Below are positions 8,231 through 22,321 of a DNA stretch of 32,000 nucleotides, piece after piece (within the stretch, counting starts at the first letter, position 1; the number at the start of each line of letters is the position of its first letter). The stretch lies in assembly GCA_963702025.1 (NCBI GenBank), contig OY969699.1:126873-158872 (forward strand), read 5' to 3'. A program made the translations under genes and the position numbers. The notes under the pieces are model-generated. The model saw only the letters and a list, made by a program, of their open reading frames with translations. It had not been told where the DNA came from and searched no databases. This DNA comes from an uncultured bacterium. Lineage in GTDB: Bacteria; Babelota; Babeliae; Babelales; Vermiphilaceae.

Positions 8231-8267
8231 GAGCCTCTCCTTAGTAGATAACAACCTACTTGTGCTT

Positions 8268-8297
8268 AAAATACGAAAAGCAGCGCAAGAAAATCAA
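8268..8297 (-). promoter_or_regulatory. candidate promoter of OMP gene 7454-8230
   Basis: The minus strand reads TTGATT-18 nt-TATTTT. Three other OMP paralogs have the same -35 hexamer and spacing. Confidence 0.4.
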
Positions 8298-8317
8298 GAA
8301 GAGTTTTTTGCTCAAAA

Positions 8318-8346
8318 AAGAAGGCACCAAAATTGGTGCCTTCTTG
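8318..8346 (-). terminator. rho-independent terminator of OMP gene 8366-9226
   Basis: AAGAAGGCACCAA / TTGGTGCCTTCTT hairpin, followed on the minus strand by TTTTTT. Confidence 0.7.
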
Positions 8347-8365
8347 AATAGTTTTTCTAAATTGA

Positions 8366-9226
8366 TTAGAAGCTATATCTTACTGCTGCAGTTACTGGGA
8401 AGCGCAACTCAGTACCAATAGCTCCTGGAAGAACATTGCTAATTGAAGCGAATGAAGTTGTAAGAGGAATGTTGTTCACATTTCTTGGACCACATGAAGC
8501 AACTACTTCACCGGTTACAACAAATGACCAATTGCCGCAGAAACACACATCAAAACCAACGTTTCCGCCACCGCTTACTACGGTATTACTTCTAAATATA
8601 TTTGTATCGGCGAGTGGAAGATTTGCAACTGTTGGCGCTGCAAGAATAATATCGGCATTTGTTCGTTTGTGATGCGTTAAACCGACTTTTCCACCCAGGA
8701 AGAATGAAACACGATCACACCAGCGATCCCAATAATACCGAGCTCCTACATACGCATCAAATATTTTGTATTTGTGGAATGAGAATGTTCCGGTTACGAC
8801 ACTGTTGAAATCAGTAGGAATTAATACTGAATCTTTACCTTTAGCTTGTGAATAATTAAATTCTAAATATACACGGGTATTATCTGAAAATGCATAACCA
8901 ACTTGTCCACCAACAATCCACGGTATTCTAAACAGCTTGCGGAACTTTGGAACATTGTCGTAAATCACGGCTACAGGGCTAGCGGCAGGAGCCAGACTAC
9001 AATCTACGCCTAAGATTTGATCCCTGTTACGCCAGAGAATTGGATTCACGCCACCCTGCACTTGCAAGTCCCATGCGCCGCAATACAACGGATTGCATCC
9101 GCATTCATAGCATGATGATTCACAACATCCGCCATCATCAGCATATTCGCGGGTAGCTTGAGCTGTGCCAACCACCGCGGTTGCCAATAAAAGAATTGAT
9201 AAATATTTTGCAGTAAATAATTTCAT
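8366..9226 (-). CDS. cysteine-rich beta-barrel outer-membrane protein (porin-like)
   Basis: ATG at 9226 (GGGAGAAAAT upstream). Signal peptide MKLFTAKYLSILLLATAVVGTAQA. Cys cluster CCESSCYECGCNPLYCGAWD. Motifs RWCDR and CFCGNW. C-terminal LRFPVTAAVRYSF. Confidence 0.85.
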   Translation of the reverse strand: MKLFTAKYLSILLLATAVVGTAQATREYADDGGCCESSCYECGCNPLYCGAWDLQVQGGVNPILWRNRDQILGVDCSLAPAASPVAVIYDNVPKFRKLFRIPWIVGGQVGYAFSDNTRVYLEFNYSQAKGKDSVLIPTDFNSVVTGTFSFHKYKIFDAYVGARYYWDRWCDRVSFFLGGKVGLTHHKRTNADIILAAPTVANLPLADTNIFRSNTVVSGGGNVGFDVCFCGNWSFVVTGEVVASCGPRNVNNIPLTTSFASISNVLPGAIGTELRFPVTAAVRYSF

Positions 9227-9271
9227 ATTTTCTCCCTTAGAATTGGTTAAATGATACTGCAACCACGCCTA

Positions 9272-9301
9272 AGATTACCCTGAATTGTCAGAAAAAATCA
9301 A
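9272..9301 (-). promoter_or_regulatory. candidate promoter of OMP gene 8366-9226
   Basis: The minus strand reads TTGATT-18 nt-TAATCT, followed by the conserved leader GGTTGCAGTAT. Hexamers, spacing and leader are identical upstream of 10396-11244. Confidence 0.45.
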
Positions 9302-9351
9302 GCTTTATTTAAATTCTACCACCGTACTGGATTTTTTTCTGACAATTTCAG
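9280..9351. repeat. 20-22-bp inverted repeat flanking a ~30-nt loop, overlapping the promoter above
   Basis: CTGAATTGTCAGAAAAAATC (9280-9299) against GATTTTTTTCTGACAATTTCAG (9330-9351). It sits directly after the stop of 9360-10238 and contains the -35 of the next gene. Confidence 0.6.
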
Positions 9352-9359
9352 TAGAGAAA

Positions 9360-10238
9360 TTAAAATGTATAACGAGCCCCTACCGTGATTGGGAAGCGCA
9401 ATTCCGTACCGATAGAACCAAATATGAGATTATTAATACCAGGAACCACTAACGGTGCTGGATTGCAACCGGCATTCTGACCAAATGCGATAGTATCGCC
9501 ACTTCTTGGTCCACAATTTGCAACTACTTCGCCAACGATCATTAGATTCCAACAATTGCACATGCAAACATCTAAGCCAATGCTTAAACCACCGCTTACT
9601 TTAGTATTTTTATCAAAAAAAGGTTGATCGGTAACAAACGCAACCGCCGCTGCCGGAGGTATAGCGAGAGTAGAGCTGAATTTTATACGTTGATGATGCA
9701 TTGCACCAACTTTTGCGCCAAGAAACACCGAATATCTGTCGCACCAGCGATCAAAGAAATATTGGAATCCAAGGTAGCCATCGTAGAGCTTATACTTGTG
9801 CAGATCAAAGACCAATGTTGATGCCGGTGATTGAAGAGTTTGGAACGATTCATCATGTTTGCCGCTGGCTTGAACATAATTAAATTCAGCATAAATACGA
9901 ATATTATCAGAAATTGCATAACCAACTTGACCACCAATGGTCCATGGCACATGGAATAATTTAAAGAAACGAGGTGTTTTTAAAAATTGAACCACCGGAT
10001 TAGCGCCGGCAACGTTGGTGCATTGAATGGCAGAAATGTAACCACGGTGTTCCCACAATATCGGCACCACACCACCATGAACTTGAAGATCGAAAGCGCC
10101 ACACGCCAACGGAATCTCAGAACAAGTGTAGCCACAACAAACCGGTTCACATTCCCGGCAATCAGAATCGGCAAGAAGAGGGGCAGCAAAAAAAAGCGCC
10201 AGCGCTAAAATACTGCTTTTATACATTGCAAACTTCAT
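9360..10238 (-). CDS. cysteine-rich beta-barrel outer-membrane protein (porin-like)
   Basis: AAGGAG RBS. Signal peptide MKFAMYKSSILALALFFAAPLLA. Cys cluster DCRECEPVCCGYTCSEIPLACGAFD. Motif RWCDR. C-terminal LRFPITVGARYTF. Confidence 0.85.
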   Translation of the reverse strand: MKFAMYKSSILALALFFAAPLLADSDCRECEPVCCGYTCSEIPLACGAFDLQVHGGVVPILWEHRGYISAIQCTNVAGANPVVQFLKTPRFFKLFHVPWTIGGQVGYAISDNIRIYAEFNYVQASGKHDESFQTLQSPASTLVFDLHKYKLYDGYLGFQYFFDRWCDRYSVFLGAKVGAMHHQRIKFSSTLAIPPAAAVAFVTDQPFFDKNTKVSGGLSIGLDVCMCNCWNLMIVGEVVANCGPRSGDTIAFGQNAGCNPAPLVVPGINNLIFGSIGTELRFPITVGARYTF

Positions 10239-10284
10239 ACAATCTCCTTAATAAGGTTTTTATCTCTTTTTGAGTAGCATTTTA

Positions 10285-10314
10285 ATACTAGCTTCATTAC
10301 CAAAAAAAAATCAA
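10285..10314 (-). promoter_or_regulatory. candidate promoter of OMP gene 9360-10238
   Basis: The minus strand reads TTGATT-18 nt-TAGTAT. Confidence 0.35.
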
Positions 10315-10337
10315 GTCTTAAAAAAATTTGTTCAAAA

Positions 10338-10373
10338 ACAAAAAAAAGGCATTGAATTTCTCAATGCCTTTTT
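10338..10373 (-). terminator. terminator hairpin after OMP gene 10396-11244
   Basis: AAGGCATTGA (10346-10355) pairs with TCAATGCCTT (10361-10370). The A-run on the plus strand becomes the T-run on the minus strand. Confidence 0.7.
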
Positions 10374-10395
10374 AGTTTTTGTTGGCAATTAGATT

Positions 10396-11244
10396 TTAGA
10401 AGCTATATCTGATTGCCGCAGTTACCGGAAAGCGAAGCTCGTTGCCAACGCTACCTACAACCAATTGCGTAATGAGAAGTCCAGTTGCCACGGTAGCCAC
10501 AGGACCAACAGATCTTGGACCACATGAGCCAACTACTTCACCAGTTACTACAAATGACCAGTTGCCACAGAAGCAAATATCAAAACCAACGTTAGCGCCG
10601 CCGCTGATTACCGTATTGCTACGATATACATTTTGGTCTGTGAACGGGGTGGTGTTACCGCTAGCAAAATTGAAATCATAGTTCAATCTTTTGTGATGTG
10701 TTAAACCAACTTTACCACCAAGGAAGAAGGAAACACGATCACACCAGCGATCCCAATAGTAACGAGCACCGGCATATGCATCAAATAATTTATATTTTCT
10801 TGCATCACCAAAAGTGAATGTTGAGCCATCTTCAGCTAAGATTCCGACATTATTTTTGTGATTTGCTTGTGAGTAGTTAAACTCTAAATACACACGAGTG
10901 TTGTCTGACATCGCATAACCAACTTGACCACCAACGATCCATGGAATTCTGTATAAGTGGCTGAATTTTGGTGTTTCAAAATAGCTAATCAATGGAGTGG
11001 ATGCTGAGCAATTCAACGCTAACCAATTGCCTCTATTGCGCCAGAGAATTGGGTTTACGCCACCTTGCACTTGCAAGTCCCATGCGCCGCAATACAACGG
11101 ATTGCATCCGCATTCGTAGCACGAAGATTCACAACATTGTGAATCACGAGATCCCCCATCATCCTGCCATGCATTCGCCTTGCTACCTAGCAAAGACAAA
11201 AGCAGAATAAGTGAGAGATGTTTTGCAGTAAGAAGTTTTTTCAT
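10396..11244 (-). CDS. cysteine-rich beta-barrel outer-membrane protein (porin-like)
   Basis: Signal peptide MKKLLTAKHLSLILLLSLLGSKANA. The N-terminal block CCESSCYECGCNPLYCGAWDLQVQGGVNPILWRNR is identical to 8366-9226. C-terminal LRFPVTAAIRYSF. Confidence 0.85.
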   Translation of the reverse strand: MKKLLTAKHLSLILLLSLLGSKANAWQDDGGSRDSQCCESSCYECGCNPLYCGAWDLQVQGGVNPILWRNRGNWLALNCSASTPLISYFETPKFSHLYRIPWIVGGQVGYAMSDNTRVYLEFNYSQANHKNNVGILAEDGSTFTFGDARKYKLFDAYAGARYYWDRWCDRVSFFLGGKVGLTHHKRLNYDFNFASGNTTPFTDQNVYRSNTVISGGANVGFDICFCGNWSFVVTGEVVGSCGPRSVGPVATVATGLLITQLVVGSVGNELRFPVTAAIRYSF

Positions 11245-11286
11245 ATTTACCCTTTTTTTTAAAGTGTTAATACTGCAACCGACTAT

Positions 11287-11316
11287 AGATTACTCCGAAG
11301 AATAAAAAAAAATCAA
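11287..11316 (-). promoter_or_regulatory. candidate promoter of OMP gene 10396-11244
   Basis: The minus strand reads TTGATT-18 nt-TAATCT plus the leader GGTTGCAGTAT, as at 9272-9301. Confidence 0.45.
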
Positions 11317-11329
11317 GAGTCAAATTAAA

Positions 11330-11369
11330 AAAAAGTAACCCAGATGCTGTTCTTGCCAACATCTGGGTT
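11330..11369 (-). terminator. terminator hairpin after OMP gene 11393-12301
   Basis: AACCCAGATG (11337-11346) pairs with CATCTGGGTT (11360-11369). The minus strand continues with a T-run (plus-strand AAAAAAAA at 11327-11334). Confidence 0.6.
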
Positions 11370-11392
11370 GTAACAAATACTTTATTTACGCA

Positions 11393-12301
11393 TTAAAAGC
11401 TGTATTTCAAGCCTGCGGTAATTGGGAAGAAAACTTCCGTGCCGATCCGGCCGACAACTAAATTGGTCGGTGAGAAATTTGGCAGAATACTCGCACAAGG
11501 ATTTAAGTTGCCAATATCTGAATTTGAACGCGGTCCACACGTAGCAACCGCTTCAGCGGTAAATACAACTGAAAAATTACAGCCCAAGCACCATTCAAAT
11601 CCGATATTTGCGCCGCCCGCTACTGAATTACTTTTATAGAAGAATGGAACACAATTTAATACAAGCGGAGTTTGTATTGTGCATTTCGTGGATGCTATGT
11701 TAATACGCGCATTCGTTTCTTTTCTATGCAAGAATCCGAATTTGCCGCCAAAGAAAAATGCAAAATCATTGCAACCACAATTTATTTCCCAATAATAGCG
11801 TGCACCCAAATACACATCATAAACTTTATAGCGACTCGGATGTATATTCACCGTTACAACATCATTTGGTGTTGCCGCAACGCCAAGTAAAGTGAAATTA
11901 CGGCCCGAGGCTTGTCGGTAATTAAATTCAATATATGTTTCAAAATCATTCGTTATAGCATAACCAATGTGGCCGCCAACGTACCAAGGGGTCTTGAACA
12001 ACTTTTTAAATCGAGGCATTTTGAATAAAGGAATAATTGATTGATTAAAATTAGGAATACTCAGTGCGTTACATGAAATCGCTGAAAAAATTCCGCGATC
12101 TGTCCATATAGTAGGGGCTACGCCACCCTGAATCTGAAAATCAATGGCTCCACAGTTTAACGGATTGCCACAGTCATATGCTTGATCACAGCACTGCTCT
12201 TCAGGGCAACAATCATCAGAACTTCTACCGAAGGTAAAATAGCTACAACTCGCTAAATAACAGAGTAAAAAAAGACTTTTACGACTCAAAACGTTTCTCA
12301 T
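11393..12301 (-). CDS. cysteine-rich beta-barrel outer-membrane protein (most divergent tandem member)
   Basis: I chose the ATG at 12301 (AAGGA 7 nt upstream) over the TTG at 12325. Cys cluster DDCCPEEQCCDQAYDCGNPLNCGAID. C-terminal VFFPITAGLKYSF. Confidence 0.8.
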   Translation of the reverse strand: MRNVLSRKSLFLLCYLASCSYFTFGRSSDDCCPEEQCCDQAYDCGNPLNCGAIDFQIQGGVAPTIWTDRGIFSAISCNALSIPNFNQSIIPLFKMPRFKKLFKTPWYVGGHIGYAITNDFETYIEFNYRQASGRNFTLLGVAATPNDVVTVNIHPSRYKVYDVYLGARYYWEINCGCNDFAFFFGGKFGFLHRKETNARINIASTKCTIQTPLVLNCVPFFYKSNSVAGGANIGFEWCLGCNFSVVFTAEAVATCGPRSNSDIGNLNPCASILPNFSPTNLVVGRIGTEVFFPITAGLKYSF

Positions 12302-12431
12302 TGGCAATCCTTTTTTTGAAAACAATATTCAACAAAATTAGCCTAGGCATAAAAATATGAAATTTGCAAGATCTTGAAAATTTGCATTAAAAAATTATAT
12401 TTAAATCCCGCCGTAAAAGGGAAGAATTTTT

Positions 12432-13532: not shown

Positions 13533-14210
13533 ATGATACAAATAACCTCAAGAGAAATCCTTTTCGCTCTTCTCAAAAAGCATCTTCCAGAAGATCCCAT
13601 AATTATTGAAGCGGGTTCATTCAATGGTAAAGATACCCTGCGCTTGGCCGCTTTTTGGCCCACATCAATAATTCACGCATTCGAACCGGTGCCAGAAATC
13701 TTTGATGAATTGGTGCGCACTACCCGTTTAAATAACAATATCATTAGATATCCGGTAGCACTCAGTGATACAAATGGTGAAAAAGCCTTTTTTGTTGCAG
13801 AACATCCCAAAAGACCGGGAAAAATATGCCAGGCAGGGAGTCTACTCAAACCAAAAGATCGATTAAACGTTTCGCCTATAACTTATCCCAAAACCATGCT
13901 AGTAAAAACATTAACTCTTGATACCTGGGCTAAGCAGTATGGAGTTGATCATGTCGATTTTATCTGGCTCGATTTACAAGGGCATGAATTGGCAGTTTTG
14001 AAAAACGGACATCATACTTTATCAACAACAAAAGCTCTCTATCTTGAAGTGAATTTTATTGAAGCCTATGAAAATCAAACAAATTATCTTCAATGTACTG
14101 ATTGGTTATATCAAAACAACTTTATTCCCGTTGCAAAAGATTTCATCGATGAAAACAAGTGGTTTTTTGGCAATATTTTATGGATAAATACTCAACTTCT
14201 GTACAAATGA
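13533..14210 (+). CDS. FkbM-family SAM-dependent methyltransferase
   Basis: IIIEAGSFNGKDTLRLA...IHAFEPVPEIFDEL...ALSDTNGEKAFFV...LDTW...IDFIWLDLQGHEL is the characteristic FkbM (TIGR01444-like) pattern. Confidence 0.8.
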   Translation: MIQITSREILFALLKKHLPEDPIIIEAGSFNGKDTLRLAAFWPTSIIHAFEPVPEIFDELVRTTRLNNNIIRYPVALSDTNGEKAFFVAEHPKRPGKICQAGSLLKPKDRLNVSPITYPKTMLVKTLTLDTWAKQYGVDHVDFIWLDLQGHELAVLKNGHHTLSTTKALYLEVNFIEAYENQTNYLQCTDWLYQNNFIPVAKDFIDENKWFFGNILWINTQLLYK

Positions 14211-14261
14211 AGCACCCAACCGCTCAAAAGCAGTTGTATCGCATTGGTATTCCGCAAAGAA

Positions 14262-14490
14262 AAAAAGCTTCATTCCTTATCGCCGTTCGTTTCCCAGCCT
14301 TCGCTAATTCCGTTCGTGCTGACCTCTCGACTACGCTCAAGACTAAAGGCCCTTAGCTTCCTGTGCCCGGCGTCCTTCGACAAGCTCAGGATGAGCGGAA
14401 GGATGCGTTTACTCCCGAGTGAAAGTCGAGGGACTTGGCGAAGACGGGTCGAAGGATCGAAACGAGCAATAATAATTTTCGGATAAGTTT
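14262..14490. repeat. MITE-like palindromic repeat, copy C1
   Basis: Imperfect inverted arms CTTATCGCCGTTCGTTTCCCAGCCTTCG... (from 14276) against ...CGAAGGATCGAAACGAGC...GATAAG (to 14487). The central core CCTTCGACAAGCTCAGGATGAGCGG is related to copy A. It generates spurious ORFs on both strands. Confidence 0.7.
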
Positions 14491-14567
14491 TTCCTGCCAG
14501 AACGTGCATAAATACACGAAAAAACTCATTTTTTTGTTTTTTTTGTTGCATCCATTATCCAAAATCT

Positions 14568-14602
14568 TGTATATACATAGTATCTGAAATTTTGTATATA
14601 CA
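14568..14602. promoter_or_regulatory. two perfect 10-bp palindromes TGTATATACA (operator-like), 25 bp centre to centre
   Basis: TGTATATACA occurs at 14568-14577 and 14593-14602. A related 9+9 palindrome ATTGTATAT-GA-ATATACAAT (14817-14836) is centred on the start codon of the downstream gene. Confidence 0.45.
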
Positions 14603-14676
14603 TTTTATATGATTAATTTTTAAAAAAAGAATGGTAATGGATCAACAAAATGAATAAAAACATAAACGATAGGAGC

Positions 14677-14698
14677 CACACACACACACACACACACA
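14677..14698. repeat. (CA)11 dinucleotide microsatellite
   Basis: Direct read CACACACACACACACACACACA. It lies ~125 nt upstream of the ATG at 14824. The duplicate unit carries (CA)8. Confidence 0.95.
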
Positions 14699-14823
14699 AA
14701 GGCTTTTTCAATGTCCCATAATCTCTATAAACACTATAATACCACTTGTTTTGATATTATCTGCGACCAACAACTACTACTACTCATTAATTATTTTTCT
14801 AACCTCATAAAAAAGGATTGTAT

Positions 14824-16278
14824 ATGAATATACAATGTAGGTTTTTAATAAAACCTTTTTCTCTTTCGCTGTTATTGATTGCATCAAGTTATGCCGATGA
14901 AATTGATTTACGTGCAGTAGATCAATTTAGAAAGTGCCAGAAGGATAACTGTTCAAGAGTTGCACTAAGCGCTCAGCTCACGTTTGGTAGTAATTATCCT
15001 TCAGCACAAACCTTTCCATCTATTTCAGCAACCGGAGACCAAGTATATGTGGTATATAATAATAATGGACTTTATACCCCTACATTACTTGCTGCACAAC
15101 TATTTGATAATGTTAACGGACAATTAGTTTCTGCGCAAACACTCCTGTGTGACCCAAACTATCCCAATCCATGGATGGGGTTCGCATCAGCAGATTTTAG
15201 CCTATTTTCTGTCCTTGATGGTAGTCTCGGGACAACATCGCTTCCGGCACGAATTCGTATTCTTGATTCAAACTTTAATCAAGTAGGTCAACGGATTTTT
15301 TCATCTTATCAAGGCGACTTTTTGGGTGTGAATCCTGCTGGTGGATTTTTTGCGGGTGGATCATTTTCAGAAGATAACCATTATGTTGTGATATCTACCA
15401 GTATTTCTAATACGCCTCCAAACGCACAAAGTATGTTAGTGGTAATGGATGCTACTAATCCTTCACTTCCCACTGTAGCGCAAACTGTAATCACCGGATT
15501 TCCAGTTTTTTTCGGCCCATATCTGTTTACTCTGACTGATAACAATGGCAATAAGAATCTGTATATTCAATATACTGTCTCCAATGGGACACCCACGCGA
15601 AATTTTATCCTATTCAATTTTTATGAACCACCCTTTTATAGCCAAGTGTATCAAGTTAATCTGACTGCGGGCACCATTACTTTAGTTGCTCAACAGCCAT
15701 TGCCTAAATTTGCTGGACCCGCTGTCCAAGTACGCGCTGGCGGCAAAGACGCACTCATTTGCCATGGCGGGTACTGCGCCCTAAACCCGAGTGCACCATC
15801 TTTTTATGCTAATCCTATTCCTTTTCAAGAATCAGTTTTACCCGGTGATTACGCCGAATCACGCGTATTTCTCTTTAATGGCACTGCCTTAAACTTAGTG
15901 GTTAAGGAAGCGGTAAATTGCTGTAATCGAACTCTCCCTTATCCCCCAAGCAATGGCTGCTCATATCTGATTGGGCAAAATCAAGATCTTCTAGTAGCGG
16001 GTTTCCCAAATGTAACCTCAGATAATCAGGAATTTTGGTGCTTTGCTGATCTTCGCCAAGGTCCAAATGGGCTTGAGTTCCGAGGAGTTAATTTGCCTAA
16101 CCAAGATATGATAACCGCCATTTCAGTATTCAGCCAAGATGGCAATTGGCTCTTTCGTGCAGGATACTTTGGATATGGCAATCAAAATCCAGAAACACCA
16201 TTTGATGATATATATGGCCTTAACAATCTCTTGCTCTTTAAAGTATACTCAGCACCATACACCCCAATTTGTAACTAA
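14824..16278 (+). CDS. secreted ~484-aa protein of unknown function (possibly beta-propeller/LVIVD-like), variant 1
   Basis: ATG at 14824 with AAGGA 6 nt upstream (the track start at 14818 is TTG). Signal peptide MNIQCRFLIKPFSLSLLLIASSYA. The repetitive strand-like segments and SMLVVMDATNPSLPTVAQT resemble an LVIVD repeat. Several Cys pairs (CQKDNC, NCCN, GC). Confidence 0.7.
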   Translation: MNIQCRFLIKPFSLSLLLIASSYADEIDLRAVDQFRKCQKDNCSRVALSAQLTFGSNYPSAQTFPSISATGDQVYVVYNNNGLYTPTLLAAQLFDNVNGQLVSAQTLLCDPNYPNPWMGFASADFSLFSVLDGSLGTTSLPARIRILDSNFNQVGQRIFSSYQGDFLGVNPAGGFFAGGSFSEDNHYVVISTSISNTPPNAQSMLVVMDATNPSLPTVAQTVITGFPVFFGPYLFTLTDNNGNKNLYIQYTVSNGTPTRNFILFNFYEPPFYSQVYQVNLTAGTITLVAQQPLPKFAGPAVQVRAGGKDALICHGGYCALNPSAPSFYANPIPFQESVLPGDYAESRVFLFNGTALNLVVKEAVNCCNRTLPYPPSNGCSYLIGQNQDLLVAGFPNVTSDNQEFWCFADLRQGPNGLEFRGVNLPNQDMITAISVFSQDGNWLFRAGYFGYGNQNPETPFDDIYGLNNLLLFKVYSAPYTPICN

Positions 16279-16296
16279 TAAAAAATAATTGATACC

Positions 16297-16317
16297 TGGC
16301 GCCTGAAAAAGGCGCCA
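16297..16317 (+). other. GC-rich intercistronic hairpin between the secreted-protein gene and the OMP gene
   Basis: TGGCGCC-TGAAAAA-GGCGCCA. No clear T-run follows, so it is more likely an attenuator or RNA-stability element than a full terminator. It is conserved at 20075-20095. Confidence 0.5.
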
Positions 16318-16335
16318 ATTTAATCAGGAGATTAT

Positions 16336-17184
16336 ATGAAATCGTTAAATCTACGTTATCTATTTTTGACACTTGCTCTTGCTTCATTCGGCTCAGCACA
16401 GGCAGATTATGATGATGGTCGCAATGCAGATTGTTGCAAAATAGATAATTGCTATGAATGTGGATGCAATCCACTCTATAGTTGCGCGTGGGATATTGCA
16501 GTGCAAGCGGGCGTTTGCCCAATCAGATGGACAGGTCGCGGCCACTGGAGTGTGCTTGAAAATGGTGCCGATGTTAATCTTTTCAGAACACCAAATTTTA
16601 GCCACTTGTATCGCCTTCCTTGGATAGTTGGCGGCCAAGTTGGCTACGCTTGGAGCGATAACGTTCGTCTTTATTTAGAATTTGATTATTTGCAAGCAAG
16701 CCGTAAAAACCGTAACAACGCTTTTAATGAATCTGCTTCATCAACAGTGCTTGATATTTGCGTTGGAAAATATAAAGCATTTGAATTTTATGTTGGTGGT
16801 CGATATTACTTTGATCGTTGGTGCGATCGTTATTCGTTCTTCTTAGGCGGTAAAATTGGGTTAATTAGTCATCGTAAAGTTCATTTTACGGGCACAATAA
16901 CTTACAACTCATATATTTTGGCACCGTCATTAGTAGATACTGAAACACCCCTCTTTAGAAGCAAAACGCAGGTGAGCGGCGGCGTTAATGGTGGCATTGA
17001 TATCTGCTTTGGTGGTAATTGGTCCTTTGTGATTACTGGTGAAGTAGTGGCCAATAGAGGGCCTCGTGGTCACTCAATTCCGTTAACGGGAAATCCTTTA
17101 GTTACTGCAACGAGCCTTTCAATCGGCAAAGCAGGCACGGAATTGCTTTTTCCAGTTACCGCCGGCATCAGATATAGCTTTTAA
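16336..17184 (+). CDS. cysteine-rich beta-barrel outer-membrane protein (copy 1 of duplicated gene)
   Basis: AGGAG RBS. Signal peptide MKSLNLRYLFLTLALASFGSAQA. Cys cluster DCCKIDNCYECGCNPLYSCAWD. Motif RWCDR. C-terminal LLFPVTAGIRYSF. It differs from 20114-20962 at only four N-terminal residues. Confidence 0.85.
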   Translation: MKSLNLRYLFLTLALASFGSAQADYDDGRNADCCKIDNCYECGCNPLYSCAWDIAVQAGVCPIRWTGRGHWSVLENGADVNLFRTPNFSHLYRLPWIVGGQVGYAWSDNVRLYLEFDYLQASRKNRNNAFNESASSTVLDICVGKYKAFEFYVGGRYYFDRWCDRYSFFLGGKIGLISHRKVHFTGTITYNSYILAPSLVDTETPLFRSKTQVSGGVNGGIDICFGGNWSFVITGEVVANRGPRGHSIPLTGNPLVTATSLSIGKAGTELLFPVTAGIRYSF

Positions 17185-17207
17185 AAATATGCTGGTTTAA
17201 AGGTAAA

Positions 17208-17257
17208 TTAATCCGTTGATTGATACTCTTGTAGCATCTTACGGCAACCGCAATTGA
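17208..17257 (+). pseudogene. relic of the 3' end of a GMC-oxidoreductase paralog
   Basis: TTAATCCGTTGATTGATACTCTTGTAGCATCTTACGG aligns with 30568-30604, the 3' end of the GMC gene (TTAATCCTTTGGTTGATGCTCTTATAGCTACTTACGG). In frame it reads NPLIDTLVASYGNRN* against NPLVDALIATYGS*. An AAGGCCTT-type terminator follows, as it does after the intact gene. Confidence 0.55.
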
Positions 17258-17285
17258 ACGTAATTTCATTTTTATTATCCCAAAA

Positions 17286-17317
17286 AAGGCCTTGTTAACA
17301 ACAAGGCCTTTTGATTT
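17286..17317 (+). terminator. terminator hairpin upstream of ribD
   Basis: AAGGCCTTGTT-AAC-AACAAGGCCTT followed by TTTTGATTT. Duplicated at 21064-21095. Confidence 0.65.
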
Positions 17318-17400
17318 ATAAAAGTGCAGAACTTTTCTTTACTTTTTTTCCAAATAATCCTAGTATCCCTTCATTCAGGAGTAAAGAAAAAGGGTGTGAT

Positions 17401-18147
17401 ATGGATCATGCATATTACATGAAAAAAGTTTTTGAGCTTGCCAAACAAGGAATCGGGTTAGTGAGCCCTAATCCACTTGTTGGTTCGCTGATCGTTAAAG
17501 ATAGCCAAATAATTGGTGCAGGATTTCATGAGCGATATGGTCAATTTCATGCAGAGTTGAATGCAATTGTATCTGCAAAGCAACCACTAAAAGGTGCAAC
17601 CCTTTATTGCAATCTTGAGCCCTGTTGCCATACTAATAAGCAAACGCCACCGTGCGCGCAACGTATAATTAAAGAAGGCATTTCACGAGTGGTGATTGCC
17701 AATAGAGATCCCAATCCAGAAGTAAATGGCGGAGGCATCGCCCTGCTCAAACAAATGGGCATAGAAGTGATCGAGAATATTTGCCAGGAGGAAGGGGAAT
17801 TGCTCAATGAAGTTTTTTTTACTTTTCACCGCAAAAAAAGACCATTTATTCATCTTAAATATGCACAGACTCTAGATGGTAATATTGCCTGCTCAAGTGG
17901 TGATTCAAAGTGGATCACTCATGAAAATGCGCGCAAAAAAGCACATGAGATGCGATTAAAATATGATGCAATTTTGATCGGTGCGGGAACTTTAGTTGCC
18001 GATAATCCTGCGCTTACTATCCGCTTTATTGAATCAGAAAAAAAATGCCCGAAAAAAGCTTCATTCCTTATCGCCGTTCGTTTCCCAGCCTTCGCTAATT
18101 CCGTTCGTGCTGACCTCTCGACTACGCTCAAGACTAAAGGCCCTTAG
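17401..18147 (+). pseudogene. ribD: truncated ribD copy (deaminase domain plus start of reductase domain) fused to repeat-derived codons
   Basis: Identical to the full-length ribD (21179-) through ...RFIESEKKCP at 18050. It then reads into MITE copy C2 (KKASFLIAVRFPAF...) and stops at 18147. Confidence 0.8.
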
Positions 18148-18281
18148 CTTCCTGTGCCCGGCGTCCTTCGACAAGCTCAGGATGAGCGGAAGGATGCGTT
18201 TACTCCCGAGTGAAAGTCGAGGGACTTGGCGAAGACGGGTCGAAGGATCGAAACGAGCAATAATAATTTTCGGATAAGTTT
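18053..18281. repeat. MITE-like palindromic repeat, copy C2
   Basis: Identical to 14262-14490. Confidence 0.7.
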
Positions 18282-18467
18282 TTCCTGCCAGAACGTGCAT
18301 AAATACACGAAAAAACTCATTTTTTTGTTTTTTTTGTTGCATCCATTATCCAAAATCTTGTATATACATAGTATCTGAAATTTTGTATATACATTTTATA
18401 TGATTAATTTTTAAAAAAAGAATGGTAATGGATCAACAAAATGAATAAAAACATAAACGATAGGAGC

Positions 18468-18483
18468 CACACACACACACACA
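18468..18483. repeat. (CA)8 dinucleotide microsatellite
   Basis: Direct read. It is the only internal length difference, apart from one A, between the otherwise identical 5' parts of the two duplication units. Confidence 0.95.
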
Positions 18484-18608
18484 AAGGCTTTTTCAATGTC
18501 CCATAATCTCTATAAACACTATAATACCACTTGTTTTGATATTATCTGCGACCAACAACTACTACTACTCATTAATTATTTTTCTAACCTCATAAAAAAG
18601 GATTGTAT

Positions 18609-20060
18609 ATGAATATACAATGTAGGTTTTTAATAAAACCTTTTTCTCTTTCGCTGTTATTGATTGCATCAAGTTATGCCGATGAAATTGATCCAGTCGC
18701 GTTAAACCAATTTAGAAAATGCCAGACGAATAACTGTTCAAGAGTTGCACTAGACAGTGAACTCACATTTAGTCTTTCTCGACCTTCTTTCATATCCTAT
18801 CCGTCTATTTCAGCAAATGGGGACCAAGTATTCATACAATATGCTAATAATGCTTTTTATACCCCTACATTACTACTTGCAGAATTATTTGATAATGTTG
18901 ACGGACAATTAGTTTCCGCTCAAACACTCAACATCGACCCAAATTATCCCAATCCATGGATTGGGTATGCATCGCCAGATTTTACACGTTTCTCCGTCAT
19001 TGATGGTAGTATCGGTACTGGATTGCTTCCGGCACGTATTCGTATTTTTGATTCAAACTTTAATCAAGTGGGCGAACGAATCTTCTCGGCTCTTCAATCA
19101 TATCTTAGTGGCGTTACTTCCGGTGGACTTGTTTGGGGTGGGGAATTTTCAGAAGATAATCATTATGTTGTAGTAACTTATAGTGTTGCCGTTTCCGGTC
19201 CAACAGTAACAAGTATGATAGTGGTGCTGGATGCTACTGATCCTTCACTTCCTATTGTAGCGCAAACCCAAATTACCGGATTTCAAAATGTTTATTCTCC
19301 GTTTCTGTTTACTCTGACTGATAACAATGGCAACCAGAATCTATACATTCAATTTTGTCTCTGCAATGGAGTGCCTCAGCGAATTGAATATTTCTTCGAT
19401 ACCGCATATATACCGCCATTTGCTAGCCAAGTTTATCAAGTTAATCTGAATGCTGGCACAATTACTTTAGTTGCCCAACAGCCATTACCTAAATTTGCCG
19501 AAGCAGATATCCTCGTACGTCCTGGCGGCAAAGATGTGATCATTGCCCATGGTGGATGGTGCTGCTTATTCCCGAATCAAATAAGTATTTATGATACTAT
19601 TCCCCCTCTCACCTCATTTTTACCTAATGATAACAGCGAAGCACGCGTATTTCTGTTTGATGGAAGTAACTTAAACTTAGTGGTTAAGGAATCAGTAAAT
19701 TGTTGTAATTGCACTTGCATTTATCCGCCAGGCAATGGCTGCTCATATTGTTTTGCACAAAATACAGTATTTGAACTAAATGGTAACCCAGCGGAGCGCT
19801 ACACTCAGCCGGAATTTTGGCTCTTTGCAGATCTTCGTCAAGGTCCAAATGGCCTTGAGTTCCGAGGAATGAATTTGCCTAAGTCGGATATGTATACCGC
19901 CGTTCGGAGATTCAGCCAGGATGGCAATTGGTTTCTTCGCGCGGGAGCACATGGATACATCAATCAGGACCCAACAATGCCATATGTTGATGCCAATGGT
20001 ATTCGCAATATCTTGCTCTACCAAGTATCCTCAGCAGCGTATACCCCAATTTGTAATTAG
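18609..20060 (+). CDS. secreted ~483-aa protein of unknown function, variant 2
   Basis: Same start context and identical signal peptide as 14824-16278. The mature part is roughly two-thirds identical by eye, with conserved islands (FSEDNHYVV, LFTLTDNNGN, QVYQVNL.AGTITLVAQQPLPKFA, FADLRQGPNGLEFRG, FSQDGNW, YTPICN). Confidence 0.7.
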   Translation: MNIQCRFLIKPFSLSLLLIASSYADEIDPVALNQFRKCQTNNCSRVALDSELTFSLSRPSFISYPSISANGDQVFIQYANNAFYTPTLLLAELFDNVDGQLVSAQTLNIDPNYPNPWIGYASPDFTRFSVIDGSIGTGLLPARIRIFDSNFNQVGERIFSALQSYLSGVTSGGLVWGGEFSEDNHYVVVTYSVAVSGPTVTSMIVVLDATDPSLPIVAQTQITGFQNVYSPFLFTLTDNNGNQNLYIQFCLCNGVPQRIEYFFDTAYIPPFASQVYQVNLNAGTITLVAQQPLPKFAEADILVRPGGKDVIIAHGGWCCLFPNQISIYDTIPPLTSFLPNDNSEARVFLFDGSNLNLVVKESVNCCNCTCIYPPGNGCSYCFAQNTVFELNGNPAERYTQPEFWLFADLRQGPNGLEFRGMNLPKSDMYTAVRRFSQDGNWFLRAGAHGYINQDPTMPYVDANGIRNILLYQVSSAAYTPICN

Positions 20061-20113
20061 TAATAATTGATACCTGGCGCCTGAAAAAGGCGCCAACCTA
20101 ATCAGGAGATCAT

Positions 20114-20962
20114 ATGAAATCGTTAAATCTACGTTATCTATTTTTGACACTTGCTCTTGCTTCATTCGGGTCAGCACAGGCAAATTATGATGATGATCGC
20201 AGTGCCGATTGTTGCAAAATGGATAATTGCTATGAATGTGGATGCAATCCACTCTATAGTTGCGCGTGGGATATTGCAGTGCAAGCGGGCGTTTGCCCAA
20301 TCAGATGGACAGGTCGCGGCCACTGGAGTGTGCTTGAAAATGGTGCCGATGTTAATCTTTTCAGAACACCAAATTTTAGCCACTTGTATCGCCTTCCTTG
20401 GATAGTTGGCGGCCAAGTTGGCTACGCTTGGAGCGATAACGTTCGTCTTTATTTAGAATTTGATTATTTGCAAGCAAGCCGTAAAAACCGTAACAACGCT
20501 TTTAATGAATCTGCTTCATCAACAGTGCTTGATATTTGCGTTGGAAAATATAAAGCATTTGAATTTTATGTTGGTGGTCGATATTACTTTGATCGTTGGT
20601 GCGATCGTTATTCGTTCTTCTTAGGCGGTAAAATTGGGTTAATTAGTCATCGTAAAGTTCATTTTACGGGCACAATAACTTACAACTCATATATTTTGGC
20701 ACCGTCATTAGTAGATACTGAAACACCCCTCTTTAGAAGCAAAACGCAGGTGAGCGGCGGCGTTAATGGTGGCATTGATATCTGCTTTGGTGGTAATTGG
20801 TCCTTTGTGATTACTGGTGAAGTAGTGGCCAATAGAGGGCCTCGTGGTCACTCAATTCCGTTAACGGGAAATCCTTTAGTTACTGCAACGAGCCTTTCAA
20901 TCGGCAAAGCAGGCACGGAATTGCTTTTTCCAGTTACCGCCGGCATCAGATATAGCTTTTAA
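20114..20962 (+). CDS. cysteine-rich beta-barrel outer-membrane protein (copy 2 of duplicated gene)
   Basis: As for 16336-17184. The nucleotide sequence is identical from ~20223 onward. Confidence 0.85.
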   Translation: MKSLNLRYLFLTLALASFGSAQANYDDDRSADCCKMDNCYECGCNPLYSCAWDIAVQAGVCPIRWTGRGHWSVLENGADVNLFRTPNFSHLYRLPWIVGGQVGYAWSDNVRLYLEFDYLQASRKNRNNAFNESASSTVLDICVGKYKAFEFYVGGRYYFDRWCDRYSFFLGGKIGLISHRKVHFTGTITYNSYILAPSLVDTETPLFRSKTQVSGGVNGGIDICFGGNWSFVITGEVVANRGPRGHSIPLTGNPLVTATSLSIGKAGTELLFPVTAGIRYSF

Positions 20963-20985
20963 AAATATGCTGGTTTAAAGGTAAA

Positions 20986-21035
20986 TTAATCCGTTGATTG
21001 ATACTCTTGTAGCATCTTACGGCAACCGCAATTGA
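20986..21035 (+). pseudogene. relic of GMC-oxidoreductase 3' end (duplicate copy)
   Basis: Identical to 17208-17257. Confidence 0.55.
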
Positions 21036-21178
21036 ACGTAATTTCATTTTTATTATCCCAAAAAAGGCCTTGTTAACAACAAGGCCTTTTGATTTATAAA
21101 AGTGCAGAACTTTTCTTTACTTTTTTTCCAAATAATCCTAGTATCCCTTCATTCAGGAGTAAAGAAAAAGGGTGTGAT

Positions 21179-22321
21179 ATGGATCATGCATATTACATGA
21201 AAAAAGTTTTTGAGCTTGCCAAACAAGGAATCGGGTTAGTGAGCCCTAATCCACTTGTTGGTTCGCTGATCGTTAAAGATAGCCAAATAATTGGTGCAGG
21301 ATTTCATGAGCGATATGGTCAATTTCATGCAGAGTTGAATGCAATTGTATCTGCAAAGCAACCACTAAAAGGTGCAACCCTTTATTGCAATCTTGAGCCC
21401 TGTTGCCATACTAATAAGCAAACGCCACCGTGCGCGCAACGTATAATTAAAGAAGGCATTTCACGAGTGGTGATTGCCAATAGAGATCCCAATCCAGAAG
21501 TAAATGGCGGAGGCATCGCCCTGCTCAAACAAATGGGCATAGAAGTGATCGAGAATATTTGCCAGGAGGAAGGGGAATTGCTCAATGAAGTTTTTTTTAC
21601 TTTTCACCGCAAAAAAAGACCATTTATTCATCTTAAATATGCACAGACTCTAGATGGTAATATTGCCTGCTCAAGTGGTGATTCAAAGTGGATCACTCAT
21701 GAAAATGCGCGCAAAAAAGCACATGAGATGCGATTAAAATATGATGCAATTTTGATCGGTGCGGGAACTTTAGTTGCCGATAATCCTGCGCTTACTATCC
21801 GCTTTATTGAATCAGAAAAAAAATGCCCGCGGCGCATAGTGCTGGGATCACTGGGATTTATTGAACCACATAATCTCGCAGTCACTGATGAATATCGGCA
21901 CAAAACAATTTTAGTGACCAGTGACTCTGATTATTGGTATCATGAAAAAAAAGCTGAAAAATTCCAAAAAGATGGCATTACCATTGTGCGCGTTGATGTT
22001 GATAATGGACTTCTTAATTTGTCTCAAGTTTGCCAAAAAATGGCAGAATTAAAAATCACATCAATACTGGTTGAAGGCGGCAGCAAGATTCTTACCTCTT
22101 TTATACTAGAAAAATTATTTGATCGTATTTCCATTTTTATTGCGCCCAAAATAATTGGCTCGGGTATAAATGCCATTGATGAGCTTGGCATTCAAAAAAT
22201 GGCTGATGCATTTACTTTTGAGAAAACAAGTTTTGAAATTATTGATGATGTAATTCATTTTTCAGGAAAGCCTGCTTACGACCGGCTCGGGATGAGAAAC
22301 AATGTTCACCGGATTAATTAG
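21179..22321 (+). CDS. ribD: bifunctional riboflavin biosynthesis protein RibD (pyrimidine deaminase / uracil reductase)
   Basis: I chose the ATG at 21179 (MDHAYYMKKVFELAKQG). The track start at 21089 is TTG and lies inside the terminator. Deaminase zinc motifs HAE and CNLEPCCH. Reductase part KYAQTLDG...LVEGG. Confidence 0.9.
   Translation: MDHAYYMKKVFELAKQGIGLVSPNPLVGSLIVKDSQIIGAGFHERYGQFHAELNAIVSAKQPLKGATLYCNLEPCCHTNKQTPPCAQRIIKEGISRVVIANRDPNPEVNGGGIALLKQMGIEVIENICQEEGELLNEVFFTFHRKKRPFIHLKYAQTLDGNIACSSGDSKWITHENARKKAHEMRLKYDAILIGAGTLVADNPALTIRFIESEKKCPRRIVLGSLGFIEPHNLAVTDEYRHKTILVTSDSDYWYHEKKAEKFQKDGITIVRVDVDNGLLNLSQVCQKMAELKITSILVEGGSKILTSFILEKLFDRISIFIAPKIIGSGINAIDELGIQKMADAFTFEKTSFEIIDDVIHFSGKPAYDRLGMRNNVHRIN

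What the first reader, a model, noticed from the sequence alone, without database searches (positions are those of the whole stretch)
14824..17184. Secreted ~484-aa protein plus Cys-rich OMP as a two-gene cassette of unknown function
In both duplication units, a signal-peptide protein with no family I can name is followed after a conserved GC hairpin by a Cys-rich beta-barrel OMP gene with its own RBS. The protein has repeated strand-like segments, an LVIVD-like stretch SMLVVMDATNPSLP, conserved Cys pairs and the invariant islands FADLRQGPNGLEFRG and YTPICN-end. The only hypervariable part of the duplication is the mature secreted protein. That pattern fits a surface-displayed or host-facing protein partnered with a dedicated barrel (anchor or exporter), i.e. 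a candidate variable surface-antigen or adhesin module. The second cassette is at 18609-20962.
Basis: inference. Interest (0 to 1): 0.7.

Follow-up and report, generated by a model that had tools for sequence, protein, structure and literature searches.

The report
Duplicated secreted propeller plus porin-like gene
A protist-infecting bacterium (phylum Dependentiae) carries two tandem copies of a gene pair: an exported seven-bladed propeller protein from an unnamed family also found in giant viruses and in a genome labelled chlamydial, and a small cysteine-rich outer-membrane barrel; it is a real but moderately interesting locus whose barrel is an ordinary multi-copy family member, not a dedicated exporter.

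Summary
Two 3.78-kb tandem units (14261-18051 and 18052-21829) each hold a 484/483-aa signal-peptide protein, a GC hairpin, a 282-aa Cys-rich barrel gene and the 5' part of ribD. The flanks have no substitutions, but the mature secreted protein differs at 27% of bases (dS 0.45), so recombination or gene conversion, not hypermutation, made the contrast.

The secreted protein models as a seven-bladed beta-propeller. It has no Pfam, NCBIfam or PDB sequence match. Its family has about 190 representative clusters and includes Klosneuvirus and Catovirus proteins and four tandem copies in a Parachlamydiales-labelled genome.

Differences between the two copies concentrate in the loops expected to form the usual ligand-binding face (54% versus 18% on the opposite face). 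dN/dS there is 0.78, so positive selection is not shown.

The barrel resembles OmpA, OmpW and Pla. It is one of seven paralogs in the window and belongs to a family of at least 152 clusters. It sits next to the propeller gene only here and in the closest relative.

Best reading: an exported, host-directed binding protein that is co-transcribed, in this lineage only, with a major-OMP paralog. The "dedicated exporter" idea is rejected and the "anchor" idea is untested.

The parts
14261..18051 (+). Tandem duplication unit A (3,791 bp)
   Evidence: Exact boundaries. Identity profile.
18052..21829 (+). Tandem duplication unit B (3,778 bp). The junction at 18051|18052 joins ribD codon ~217 (counted from the ATG at 17401; ~247 of the TTG-started ORF) bluntly to the start of the unit.
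   Evidence: no microhomology longer than 1 nt at the junction.
14263..14492 (.). GC-rich imperfect palindromic element of about 230 nt at the left end of the unit (copy B at 18054-18283). The ORFs across it on both strands look spurious.
   Evidence: MFE -81 kcal/mol, z -2.7; no Rfam match; only these two copies in the window.
14568..14602 (.). Two perfect 10-bp palindromes TGTATATACA, 25 bp apart (copy B at 18359-18393). A one-mismatch copy overlaps the start codon (14825-14834). Candidate operator sites.
   Evidence: 9 hits with at most 1 mismatch against 1.1 expected. Exact copies occur only upstream of the two cassettes.
14677..14698 (+). (CA)11 microsatellite 125 nt upstream of the ATG; (CA)8 at 18468-18483 in copy B.
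   Evidence: this is the only difference in 647 bp of upstream DNA, and these are the only dinucleotide repeats of 5 or more units in the window.
14824..16278 (+). Propeller gene A, 484 aa. Signal peptide at codons 1-24 (14824-14895), then a seven-bladed beta-propeller.
16297..16317 (+). Intercistronic hairpin GGCGCC-N7-GGCGCC (copy B at 20075-20095).
   Evidence: Conserved in L005 and L009.
16336..17184 (+). Cys-rich small outer-membrane beta-barrel A, 282 aa, 10 Cys, C-terminal ...RYSF.
17284..17312 (+). Terminator-like 13-bp hairpin followed by a U-run after the OMP gene (copy B at 21062-21090).
17401..18051 (+). Truncated 5' copy of ribD (deaminase domain plus the start of the reductase domain), cut by the duplication junction. 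The ORF runs on to 18147.
18609..20060 (+). Propeller gene B, 483 aa, 65% amino-acid identity to copy A.
20114..20962 (+). Cys-rich barrel B, 282 aa, 98.6% identical to barrel A. All four amino-acid differences lie in residues 24-36.
21179..22321 (+). Intact ribD, the first gene of ribD-ribE-ribBA-ribH.
7454..12325 (-). Cluster of five more paralogs of the same OMP family (35-52% identity to the cassette OMP).
   Evidence: The same five-gene cluster next to glyA and efp is kept in relative L013.

Best explanation
The window comes from a Dependentiae (TM6, Babeliales-like) genome, a phylum of obligate intracellular parasites of protists. It holds a 3.78-kb tandem duplication. Each unit carries, in order: a palindromic element; an upstream region with a (CA)n tract and palindromic sites; a gene for a Sec-exported, disulfide-containing seven-bladed beta-propeller; an intercistronic hairpin; a gene for a small Cys-rich OmpA/OmpW-like barrel; a terminator; and the 5' two-thirds of ribD.

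Shown:
- The propeller belongs to an unannotated family that also occurs in Klosneuvirinae giant viruses and in a Parachlamydiales-labelled genome.
- The two propeller cores are old sister paralogs (dS 0.45) set in flanks that have no substitutions at all.
- Their differences concentrate in the B-C and D-A loops.
- The barrel is one member of the lineage's large OMP family.

Inferred:
- Gene conversion (or a recent duplication followed by an allele swap) keeps the promoter, signal peptide, OMP and ribD parts identical, while the propeller cores stay distinct.
- The propeller is a ligand-binding protein that acts at the bacterial surface or after release by type II secretion or outer-membrane vesicles.
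- Its target is in the protist host, and the two copies offer two binding specificities.
- The barrel is co-transcribed with it in this lineage and may hold it at the outer membrane through disulfides, but it does not export it.
For: Taxon:
- The closest named relatives of EF-P are Candidatus Dependentiae and Babeliales, at 74-76% identity.
- One OMP homolog comes from a bin tagged DEP1, which I read as Dependentiae.

Fold:
- The AF2 model has pTM 0.78 and 30 strands, which I could assign to seven four-stranded blades.
- Foldseek gave probability 1.0 to seven-bladed propellers such as eIF3i, integrin alpha and PpgL.

Family:
- Pfam, NCBIfam and PDB sequence searches gave no hit.
- The exhaustive profile search found 190 representative clusters at E<=1e-3.
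- The four best viral fold matches are Catovirus and Klosneuvirus proteins, E 3e-26 to 2.5e-21, TM up to 0.84.
- A protein on a 1.15-Mb IMG/VR contig is a full-length homolog: hhalign probability 99.9%, E 3e-32.
- Four tandem copies lie in Parachlamydiales MAG OY970065.1.

Host-directed role:
- Only 30 of 148 relatives have a signal-peptide-like N-terminus by a crude hydrophobicity test. The five distant members I read in full have Asn/Ser-rich low-complexity extensions and no signal peptide. A purely periplasmic job is therefore unlikely for the family.
- Neighbours in other genomes include ankyrin-repeat and Arf/Ras-like proteins.
- The literature proposes secreted beta-propellers of Babela as host-interaction proteins and reports the type II system as the only secretion system detected there (PMC4378268).

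Mosaic duplication:
- Searches give the boundaries and the difference counts.
- dS 0.45, dN 0.26, omega 0.58, against 0.14-0.30 for the Parachlamydiales paralogs.
- Copies A and B are sister sequences.
- 54% of B-C and D-A loop residues differ, against 18% in A-B and C-D loops and 34% in strands (Fisher p = 2e-6).

Operon:
- The intercistronic hairpin is conserved and a terminator follows the OMP gene.
- The pair is kept in L005, L008 and L009.

Barrel:
- AF2 pLDDT 82. Best structural matches are OmpA, Pla, OmpW and the porins of the Legionella Dot/Icm machine.
- The sequence ends in Phe.
Against: - There is no direct evidence of where the protein ends up. A signal peptide only takes it to the periplasm.
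- Omega in the variable loops is 0.78 (CI 0.50-1.22), so relaxed constraint explains the pattern as well as positive selection does.
- Those same loops are also the least conserved across the family.
- I assigned loops to a face from the standard propeller topology and the DSSP strand list, not from coordinates.
- Between related strains the propeller is not more variable than the OMP.
- The pairing with an OMP is seen in only one lineage.
- The virus link rests on metagenome-derived viral genomes and one IMG/VR contig. A second viral scan found no further contigs.
- The genome has only two copies, which is too few for an antigenic-variation repertoire.
Confidence: 0.5

Rival explanations
1. 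The propeller is a periplasmic envelope factor in the manner of TolB or BamB. It binds the periplasmic side or the Cys-rich N-terminus of its neighbouring barrel and helps to assemble or tether the disulfide-linked outer membrane. It never contacts the host.
For: - It has a signal peptide and no lipobox or other known surface-sorting signal.
- PD40-like blade motifs ([FI]S.DG..) are visible in the alignment.
- TolB is among the fold matches.
- The gene appears co-transcribed with an OMP.
- The divergent block runs into the OMP's N-terminal residues 24-36, which could reflect co-adaptation of the two proteins.
Against: - The family is patchy. Relative L013 keeps the five-gene OMP cluster and its flanking genes but has no propeller gene in the 21-kb locus read.
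- Most family members lack a signal-peptide-like N-terminus, and some are viral.
- Most other loci have no OMP nearby.
- TM-scores to TolB are low, 0.31-0.37.
- Tandem multi-copy arrays and an omega of 0.58 are unusual for a housekeeping envelope factor.
Confidence: 0.2
2. The pair is a display module. The small barrel is the specific anchor (or even the translocator) that presents the propeller on the cell surface. The two cassettes, together with the (CA)n tract, form a phase-variable or antigenically variable system.
For: - The pair and its hairpin are conserved in the nearest relative in a different downstream context.
- Both proteins are Cys-rich, at 2.3-3.5% against about 1-2% for most neighbours.
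- The (CA)n length is the only upstream difference between the copies.
- The promoter and signal peptide are conserved while the mature part diverges, which resembles known variable surface-protein gene families (my own knowledge, not tested here).
Against: - The barrel models with roughly 10-12 strands. It has no POTRA, secretin or autotransporter features and no Pfam hit other than a weak OMP_b-brl match.
- It is one of seven paralogs in the window, in a family of at least 152 clusters.
- The pairing is absent from L001, L003, L006 and L011.
- There are only two copies.
- No sigma-70-like promoter spans the repeat.
- Positive selection is not demonstrated.
Confidence: 0.2
3. The tandem duplication is an assembly artefact: two strain alleles of one locus were laid end to end in a metagenome-assembled chromosome.
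For: - The flanks are 100% identical around a diverged core, which is what two co-existing alleles would look like.
- Each of the two proteins was seen on one contig only.
Against: - The junction joins the middle of ribD to an intergenic element with no shared sequence. Assemblers join sequences at overlaps.
- The copies also differ in (CA)n length.
- Tandem arrays of this family exist independently in another complete chromosome.
Confidence: 0.06
4. The propeller is an exported enzyme, for example a lactonase or glycosidase-like seven-bladed propeller.
For: PpgL gluconolactonase and phage 'lactonase, 7-bladed beta propeller' entries appear among the weaker fold matches.
Against: - No sequence-level match to any enzyme family was found.
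- TM-scores to those entries are about 0.4-0.5 at 9-12% identity.
- The invariant residues are mostly Gly, Pro, aromatic and Cys structural positions.
Confidence: 0.05

Closest known systems
Uncharacterized propeller proteins of Klosneuvirinae giant viruses (Klosneuvirus KNV1 A0A1V0SKH3 and A0A1V0SLH3; Catovirus CTV1 A0A1V0S9M7 and A0A1V0S9F0)
   Same: They share the same seven-bladed propeller over its full length: Foldseek E 3e-26 to 2.5e-21, TM up to 0.84, 18-22% identity. A related giant-virus contig protein aligns at hhalign probability 99.9%. These are true homologs.
   Different: The distant, presumably viral-type members I read have no signal peptide, often carry Asn/Ser-rich low-complexity extensions, and lack the conserved CC and C-terminal Cys of the bacterial branch. 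Their function is unknown too.
TolB-Pal (a periplasmic PD40-type beta-propeller with an outer-membrane partner)
   Same: Both are exported beta-propellers with [FI]S.DG-type blade turns, encoded next to an outer-membrane protein.
   Different: TolB has six blades plus an N-terminal domain. TM-scores are only 0.31-0.37. No PD40 or TolB Pfam or NCBIfam hit was found. Pal is a lipoprotein that binds peptidoglycan, not a barrel. Tol-Pal is universal and single-copy, whereas this family is patchy and multi-copy.
Small outer-membrane barrels: OmpA N-terminal domain, OmpW, Pla/OmpT, and porins I and III of the Legionella Dot/Icm machine (Pfam OMP_b-brl, PF13505)
   Same: The cassette OMP models as a small barrel, ends in an aromatic residue, and 38 of 42 family members match PF13505 at E<=0.01.
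   Different: The window protein scores 25.9 bits, below the 28.7 gathering cut-off. It carries a Cys-rich N-terminal segment of about 30 residues (CCxxxCYECGCNPLY.C) that is poorly modelled and has no match. Identity to solved structures is 9-13%.
Variable surface-protein gene families with a conserved promoter and signal-peptide region and a divergent mature part, such as the Mycoplasma vlp/vsp families (recalled from my own knowledge, not tested here)
   Same: The upstream region and signal peptide are identical and the mature region is diverged. A simple-sequence repeat lies upstream. Mosaic identity suggests gene conversion.
   Different: There are only two copies, no lipobox and no internal tandem repeats. 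The repeat has not been shown to lie inside a promoter, and no switching has been shown.
Two-partner secretion and autotransporters (type V secretion)
   Same: A secreted passenger-like protein is encoded next to an outer-membrane barrel.
   Different: The gene order is reversed relative to many tps operons. The barrel is far too small and has no POTRA domain. The propeller has no TPS domain or beta-helix.

Membership tests
Seven-bladed beta-propeller fold | About 28 strands arranged in seven four-stranded antiparallel blades, closed by an N-terminal strand joining the C-terminal blade | tested here: met
   AF2 model with pTM 0.78 and 30 strands, which I assigned to seven blades with the N-terminal strand 46-58 completing blade 7. 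Foldseek probability 1.0 to eIF3i, integrin alpha, Sec12 and PpgL.
Klosneuvirus/Catovirus-type uncharacterized propeller family (unnamed) | Full-length profile-level homology to the viral proteins | tested here: met
   hhalign probability 99.9%, E 2.9e-32 over 396 columns with the L010 protein. Foldseek E 3e-26 to 2.5e-21. HMM hits to low-complexity-plus-propeller proteins at E about 1e-33.
LVIVD repeat propeller (PF08309) | Match to the LVIVD repeat profile | tested here: not met
   No Pfam family at E<=0.1 for either copy.
PD40/TolB-type propeller (PF07676; TolB) | Match to the PD40 repeat profile or a TolB equivalog; six-bladed propeller with an N-terminal alpha/beta domain | tested here: not met
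   No Pfam or NCBIfam hit. Seven blades and no extra domain. TM-score to TolB 0.31-0.37. Only the blade-turn motif resembles PD40.
OMP_b-brl (PF13505) small outer-membrane barrel | Profile score above the gathering cut-off | tested here: inconclusive
   The window OMP scores 25.9 bits against a cut-off of 28.7. 38 of 42 family members match at E<=0.01.
OMP_b-brl (PF13505) small outer-membrane barrel | Closed antiparallel barrel with a C-terminal aromatic residue | tested here: met
   AF2 pLDDT 82. Best matches are OmpA, OmpW and Pla. The sequence ends ...RYSF.
Two-partner secretion (TpsA/TpsB) | A 16-stranded Omp85-type transporter with POTRA domains, and a TPS-domain passenger | tested here: not met
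   The barrel is 282 aa with no POTRA, ShlB or Bac_surface_Ag hit. The passenger is a propeller.
Chlamydial cysteine-rich outer-membrane complex proteins (MOMP, OmcA, OmcB) | Sequence membership in the chlamydial OMP Pfam families | tested here: not met
   The only Pfam hit is OMP_b-brl. The analogy is limited to the high Cys content.
Phase-variable contingency locus | A simple-sequence repeat whose length varies | tested here: met
   (CA)11 versus (CA)8 is the only upstream difference between the copies.
Phase-variable contingency locus | The repeat sits inside a promoter or ORF so that its length switches expression | not testable with these tools
   No sigma-70-like promoter was called across the repeat. 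Dependentiae promoters are not characterised, and there are no expression data.

The most novel reading that the evidence does not exclude
Protist-infecting bacteria from two phyla (Dependentiae, and the Chlamydiae if the MAG label is right) and Klosneuvirinae giant viruses share one host-targeting propeller family, exchanged inside protist hosts. In this Dependentiae lineage the protein has become an exported, disulfide-locked ligand that is held on the cell by a matched Cys-rich barrel. It has been duplicated into two specificities that recombination keeps under identical control regions, and a mutable (CA)n tract tunes their expression. This would be a primitive surface-variation system in a phylum where none is known.
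Probability: 0.12. Interest if true: 0.7.

Novelty: new member of a known kind. Interest (0 to 1): 0.42.

Why it matters
Almost nothing is known about how Dependentiae interact with their hosts. This locus points to one unannotated protein family of about 190 representative clusters. The family links Dependentiae, a genome labelled chlamydial and giant viruses, carries a signal peptide in the bacteria, and is repeatedly amplified in tandem. That makes it a concrete candidate for a host-binding factor and a candidate for a new Pfam family. The window also documents a large Cys-rich small-barrel OMP family, probably the main outer-membrane proteins of these bacteria. Finally, it is a clean example of a duplication whose flanks are identical while its core is 27% diverged. 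None of this overturns current ideas, and it fits the picture of amoebae as a gene-exchange "melting pot" (PMC4378268, PMC11323580).

Tried and rejected
- Pfam and NCBIfam on both propeller copies, and Pfam on ten distant or longer family members: no hits.
- PDB sequence search with family profiles for the propeller and the OMP: no hits.
- Rfam on the whole window at gathering thresholds and on 14200-14830 at E<=1: nothing.
I reran it with A2.
- Metagenome scans: A3 gave no usable pattern, A1 found nothing, and A4 found one locus, L011, which has no OMP.
- The genome scan found only the Parachlamydiales MAG.
- A second viral scan with members lacking a signal peptide found only the same 1.15-Mb contig, so I could not show that the family is common in IMG/VR.
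- The cluster look-up returned no organism names for the window's proteins. I inferred the taxon from EF-P instead.
- A simple strand-versus-non-strand split of the paralog differences showed no enrichment (35% versus 39%, p = 0.33). Only the split by propeller face was informative.
- The second ORF in viral locus L010 (7979-9916) is not a family member.
- The 508-aa Cys-rich protein at 26732-28258 is not related to the OMP family.
- I considered hypermutation of the mature region and rejected it, because synonymous sites are diverged as well.
- Co-folding the propeller with the OMP and mapping residues onto coordinates could not be done with the tools at hand.
- No paper in the held library describes either family.
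Full report
**1. What is in the sequence**

ORFs lie at 14824-16278 (484 aa from the ATG), 16336-17184 (282 aa), 18609-20060 (483 aa) and 20114-20962 (282 aa). Both protein types begin with a Sec-type signal peptide, read directly from the sequence. Each gene has an AGGA or AGGAG motif just upstream.

Between the two genes is a GC hairpin, GGCGCC-N7-GGCGCC (16297-16317 and 20075-20095). It folds at about -18 kcal/mol, z about -3.5, and no shuffle of 200 did as well. A 13-bp hairpin with a U-run follows the OMP gene at 17284-17312. The anatomy therefore reads as one transcription unit: propeller, hairpin, OMP, terminator.

**2. The duplication**

Unit A is 14261-18051 and unit B is 18052-21829. 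The junction joins the middle of ribD bluntly to the start of the unit, with no shared sequence beyond one base. This leaves a truncated ribD copy at 17401-18051 and an intact ribD at 21179-22321, followed by ribE, ribBA and ribH.

Differences between the two units, by segment:

| Segment | Differences |
|---|---|
| Upstream, 14261-14907 (647 bp) | none except a (CA)3 indel |
| Mature propeller region (1,383 bp) | 368 |
| 16279-16443 (spacer and OMP codons 1-36) | 13 |
| 16444-18051 (1,608 bp) | none |

Synonymous sites in the core are diverged (dS 0.45, dN 0.26, omega 0.58). The core was therefore not hypermutated. It has an older history than its flanks. Copies A and B are sister sequences, and together they are sister to the closest relative, P0003.

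The simplest account is an old duplication whose flanks are kept identical by gene conversion. The alternative is a recent duplication followed by recombination that swapped in a divergent allele. An assembly error is unlikely because the junction has no overlap to assemble across, but only read-level data can exclude it.

**3. The organism**

EF-P from the window is 74-76% identical to the closest named proteins, which come from Candidatus Dependentiae and Babeliales. One OMP homolog comes from a soil bin tagged DEP1, which I read as Dependentiae. Dependentiae are diderm, obligate intracellular parasites of protists. According to the literature they have a Sec system and a type II secretion or type IV pilus apparatus, they shed outer-membrane vesicles, and many of their proteins carry signal peptides (PMC6561590; PMC4776705; PMC4378268).

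**4. The 484-aa protein**

Fold and annotation:
- It has no Pfam or NCBIfam match and no PDB sequence match.
- An AlphaFold2 model from eight sequences (pLDDT 70, pTM 0.78) is all-beta with 30 strands. I could assign these to seven four-stranded blades, with the N-terminal strand closing the last blade.
- Foldseek against the PDB returns only generic seven-bladed propellers at about 10% identity and TM 0.45-0.6.

Extent of the family:
- The word-indexed search found only eight relatives.
- The exhaustive profile search found 190 representative clusters at E<=1e-3, of which 47 were at E<=1e-30.
- Ten distant members also have no Pfam match.

Link to giant viruses:
- The four best matches in the viral structure library are uncharacterized proteins of Catovirus CTV1 and Klosneuvirus KNV1 (E 3e-26 to 2.5e-21, TM up to 0.84, 18-22% identity).
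- A protein on a 1.15-Mb IMG/VR contig aligns to the family profile over 396 columns (probability 99.9%, E 3e-32).
- Five distant members that I read in full consist of Asn/Ser-rich low-complexity stretches plus the propeller, with no signal peptide.
- By a crude hydrophobicity test only 30 of 148 relatives have a signal-peptide-like N-terminus.

Other bacterial members:
- The bacterial branch also occurs in a complete chromosome labelled Parachlamydiales (OY970065.1). There, four paralogs sit in tandem next to an ankyrin-repeat gene and polysaccharide genes. They show mosaic identity of their own.
- Another member lies beside ankyrin-repeat and Arf/Ras-like genes.

A family shared by protist-infecting bacteria of two phyla (taking the MAG's label at face value) and by protist-infecting giant viruses argues for a role directed at the host, not a bacterial housekeeping role.

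**5. Where the two copies differ**

A plain strand-versus-non-strand split shows nothing (35% versus 39%). I then used the blade assignment and the standard propeller topology, in which B-C and D-A loops lie on one face and A-B and C-D loops on the other. This assignment is an inference, because I had no access to the model coordinates. It gives the following:

| Residue class | Residues that differ | Omega |
|---|---|---|
| B-C and D-A loops | 54% | 0.78 (bootstrap CI 0.50-1.22) |
| Strands | 34% | 0.58 |
| A-B and C-D loops | 18% | 0.24 |

The contrast between the two loop classes is significant (Fisher p = 2e-6).

The B-C and D-A face is the usual ligand-binding face of propellers. Diversified binding is therefore plausible, but positive selection is not shown, and the same loops are also the least conserved across the family. 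Between two strains of the nearest relative, the propeller and the OMP diverge about equally (88.5% versus 90.7% nucleotide identity). The protein is therefore not intrinsically hypervariable.

**6. The barrel**

- The 282-aa protein scores just below the OMP_b-brl cut-off (25.9 versus 28.7 bits). 38 of 42 relatives match that family at E<=0.01.
- Its model (pLDDT 82) is a small barrel. The best structural matches are OmpA, Pla/OmpT, OmpW and the porins of the Legionella Dot/Icm machine.
- It has 10 Cys, several of them in a poorly modelled N-terminal segment, and it ends in Phe.
- It is not dedicated to the propeller. The window holds five more paralogs at 7454-12325, and the family has at least 152 clusters.
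- A relative with 87% EF-P identity keeps the same order of genes (NDK ... efp, glyA, five OMPs, glycosyltransferase, FkbM methyltransferase) but has no propeller cassette after FkbM.

**7. Is the pair conserved?**

Yes, but only nearby. In the nearest relative (53% propeller identity, 64% OMP identity) the same order and a hairpin with the same GGCGCC stem occur in contigs from three samples. There, a different gene follows the OMP. None of L001, L003, L006, L011 or the viral locus has an OMP homolog within the flanks. L007 ends 63 bp after the gene. The cassette is therefore a lineage-specific operon, not a feature of the family.

**8. Verdict**

My best explanation (confidence about 0.5) is an exported, disulfide-stabilised, host-directed binding propeller. 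In this lineage it is co-transcribed with a paralog of the major OMP family, and it has been duplicated and kept as two variants under identical control regions.

Alternatives:
- A periplasmic TolB/BamB-like role (about 0.2).
- A true anchor-and-variation module (about 0.2).
- An assembly artefact (about 0.06).
- An enzyme (about 0.05).

The barrel as an exporter is rejected.

The finding is a new, unannotated family of a known fold with an interesting distribution across bacteria and viruses. It is not a new kind of system.

Noticed in passing
window 14263-14492 and 18054-18283: A GC-rich imperfect palindrome of about 230 nt sits exactly at the left end of each duplication unit (MFE -81 kcal/mol, z -2.7). 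It has no Rfam match, and spurious ORFs cross it on both strands. It may be a MITE- or REP-like element, and it may have been the breakpoint of the duplication.
   Followed up: partly
window 14677-14698 and 18468-18483: (CA)11 versus (CA)8, about 125 nt upstream of the propeller start codon. This is the only difference in 647 bp of otherwise identical DNA, and these are the only dinucleotide repeats of 5 or more units in 32 kb. It is a candidate expression-tuning repeat.
   Followed up: partly
window 14568-14602, 14825-14834 and the copies at 18359-18393, 18610-18619: The perfect palindrome TGTATATACA occurs twice, 25 bp apart, upstream of each propeller gene, and a one-mismatch copy overlaps the start codon inside a small hairpin. 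Exact copies occur nowhere else in the window (9 hits with at most 1 mismatch against 1.1 expected). It looks like a regulator binding site.
   Followed up: partly
window 17401-18147: A truncated ribD copy keeps the whole deaminase domain and the first third of the reductase domain. It reads through into the palindromic element before it stops, and it could still be expressed.
   Followed up: no
window 7454-12325 (- strand); L013 8938-13879: A tandem cluster of five Cys-rich small-barrel OMP paralogs lies next to glyA and efp. It is conserved as a five-gene cluster in a relative with 87% EF-P identity. These are probably the main outer-membrane proteins of this Dependentiae group. The family has no curated annotation.
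   Followed up: partly
window 26732-28258: A 508-aa signal-peptide protein with 23 Cys (4.5%) and an N-terminal DYCPDYECC motif. It has no Pfam or NCBIfam hit and is not detectably related to the OMP family. A signal-peptide GMC oxidoreductase follows it at 28277-30607.
   Followed up: partly
window 25894-26523: A fragment of an IS630-family transposase (it matches profile positions 104-291 of 299) lies just downstream of the riboflavin operon.
   Followed up: no
L001 6527-12290 (Parachlamydiales MAG OY970065.1): Four tandem propeller paralogs with nearly identical signal peptides and mosaic identity (for example 97% falling to 76% along one pair). They sit between a PQQ-propeller gene and sugar-nucleotide and polysaccharide genes, with no OMP neighbour.
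   Followed up: partly
window 946-1488 (- strand) and 1735-2946: An ankyrin-repeat protein with a hydrophobic, signal-peptide-like N-terminus and an AAA_14/DUF4143 ATPase. The same ATPase type follows the propeller-OMP pair in relative L008.
   Followed up: no
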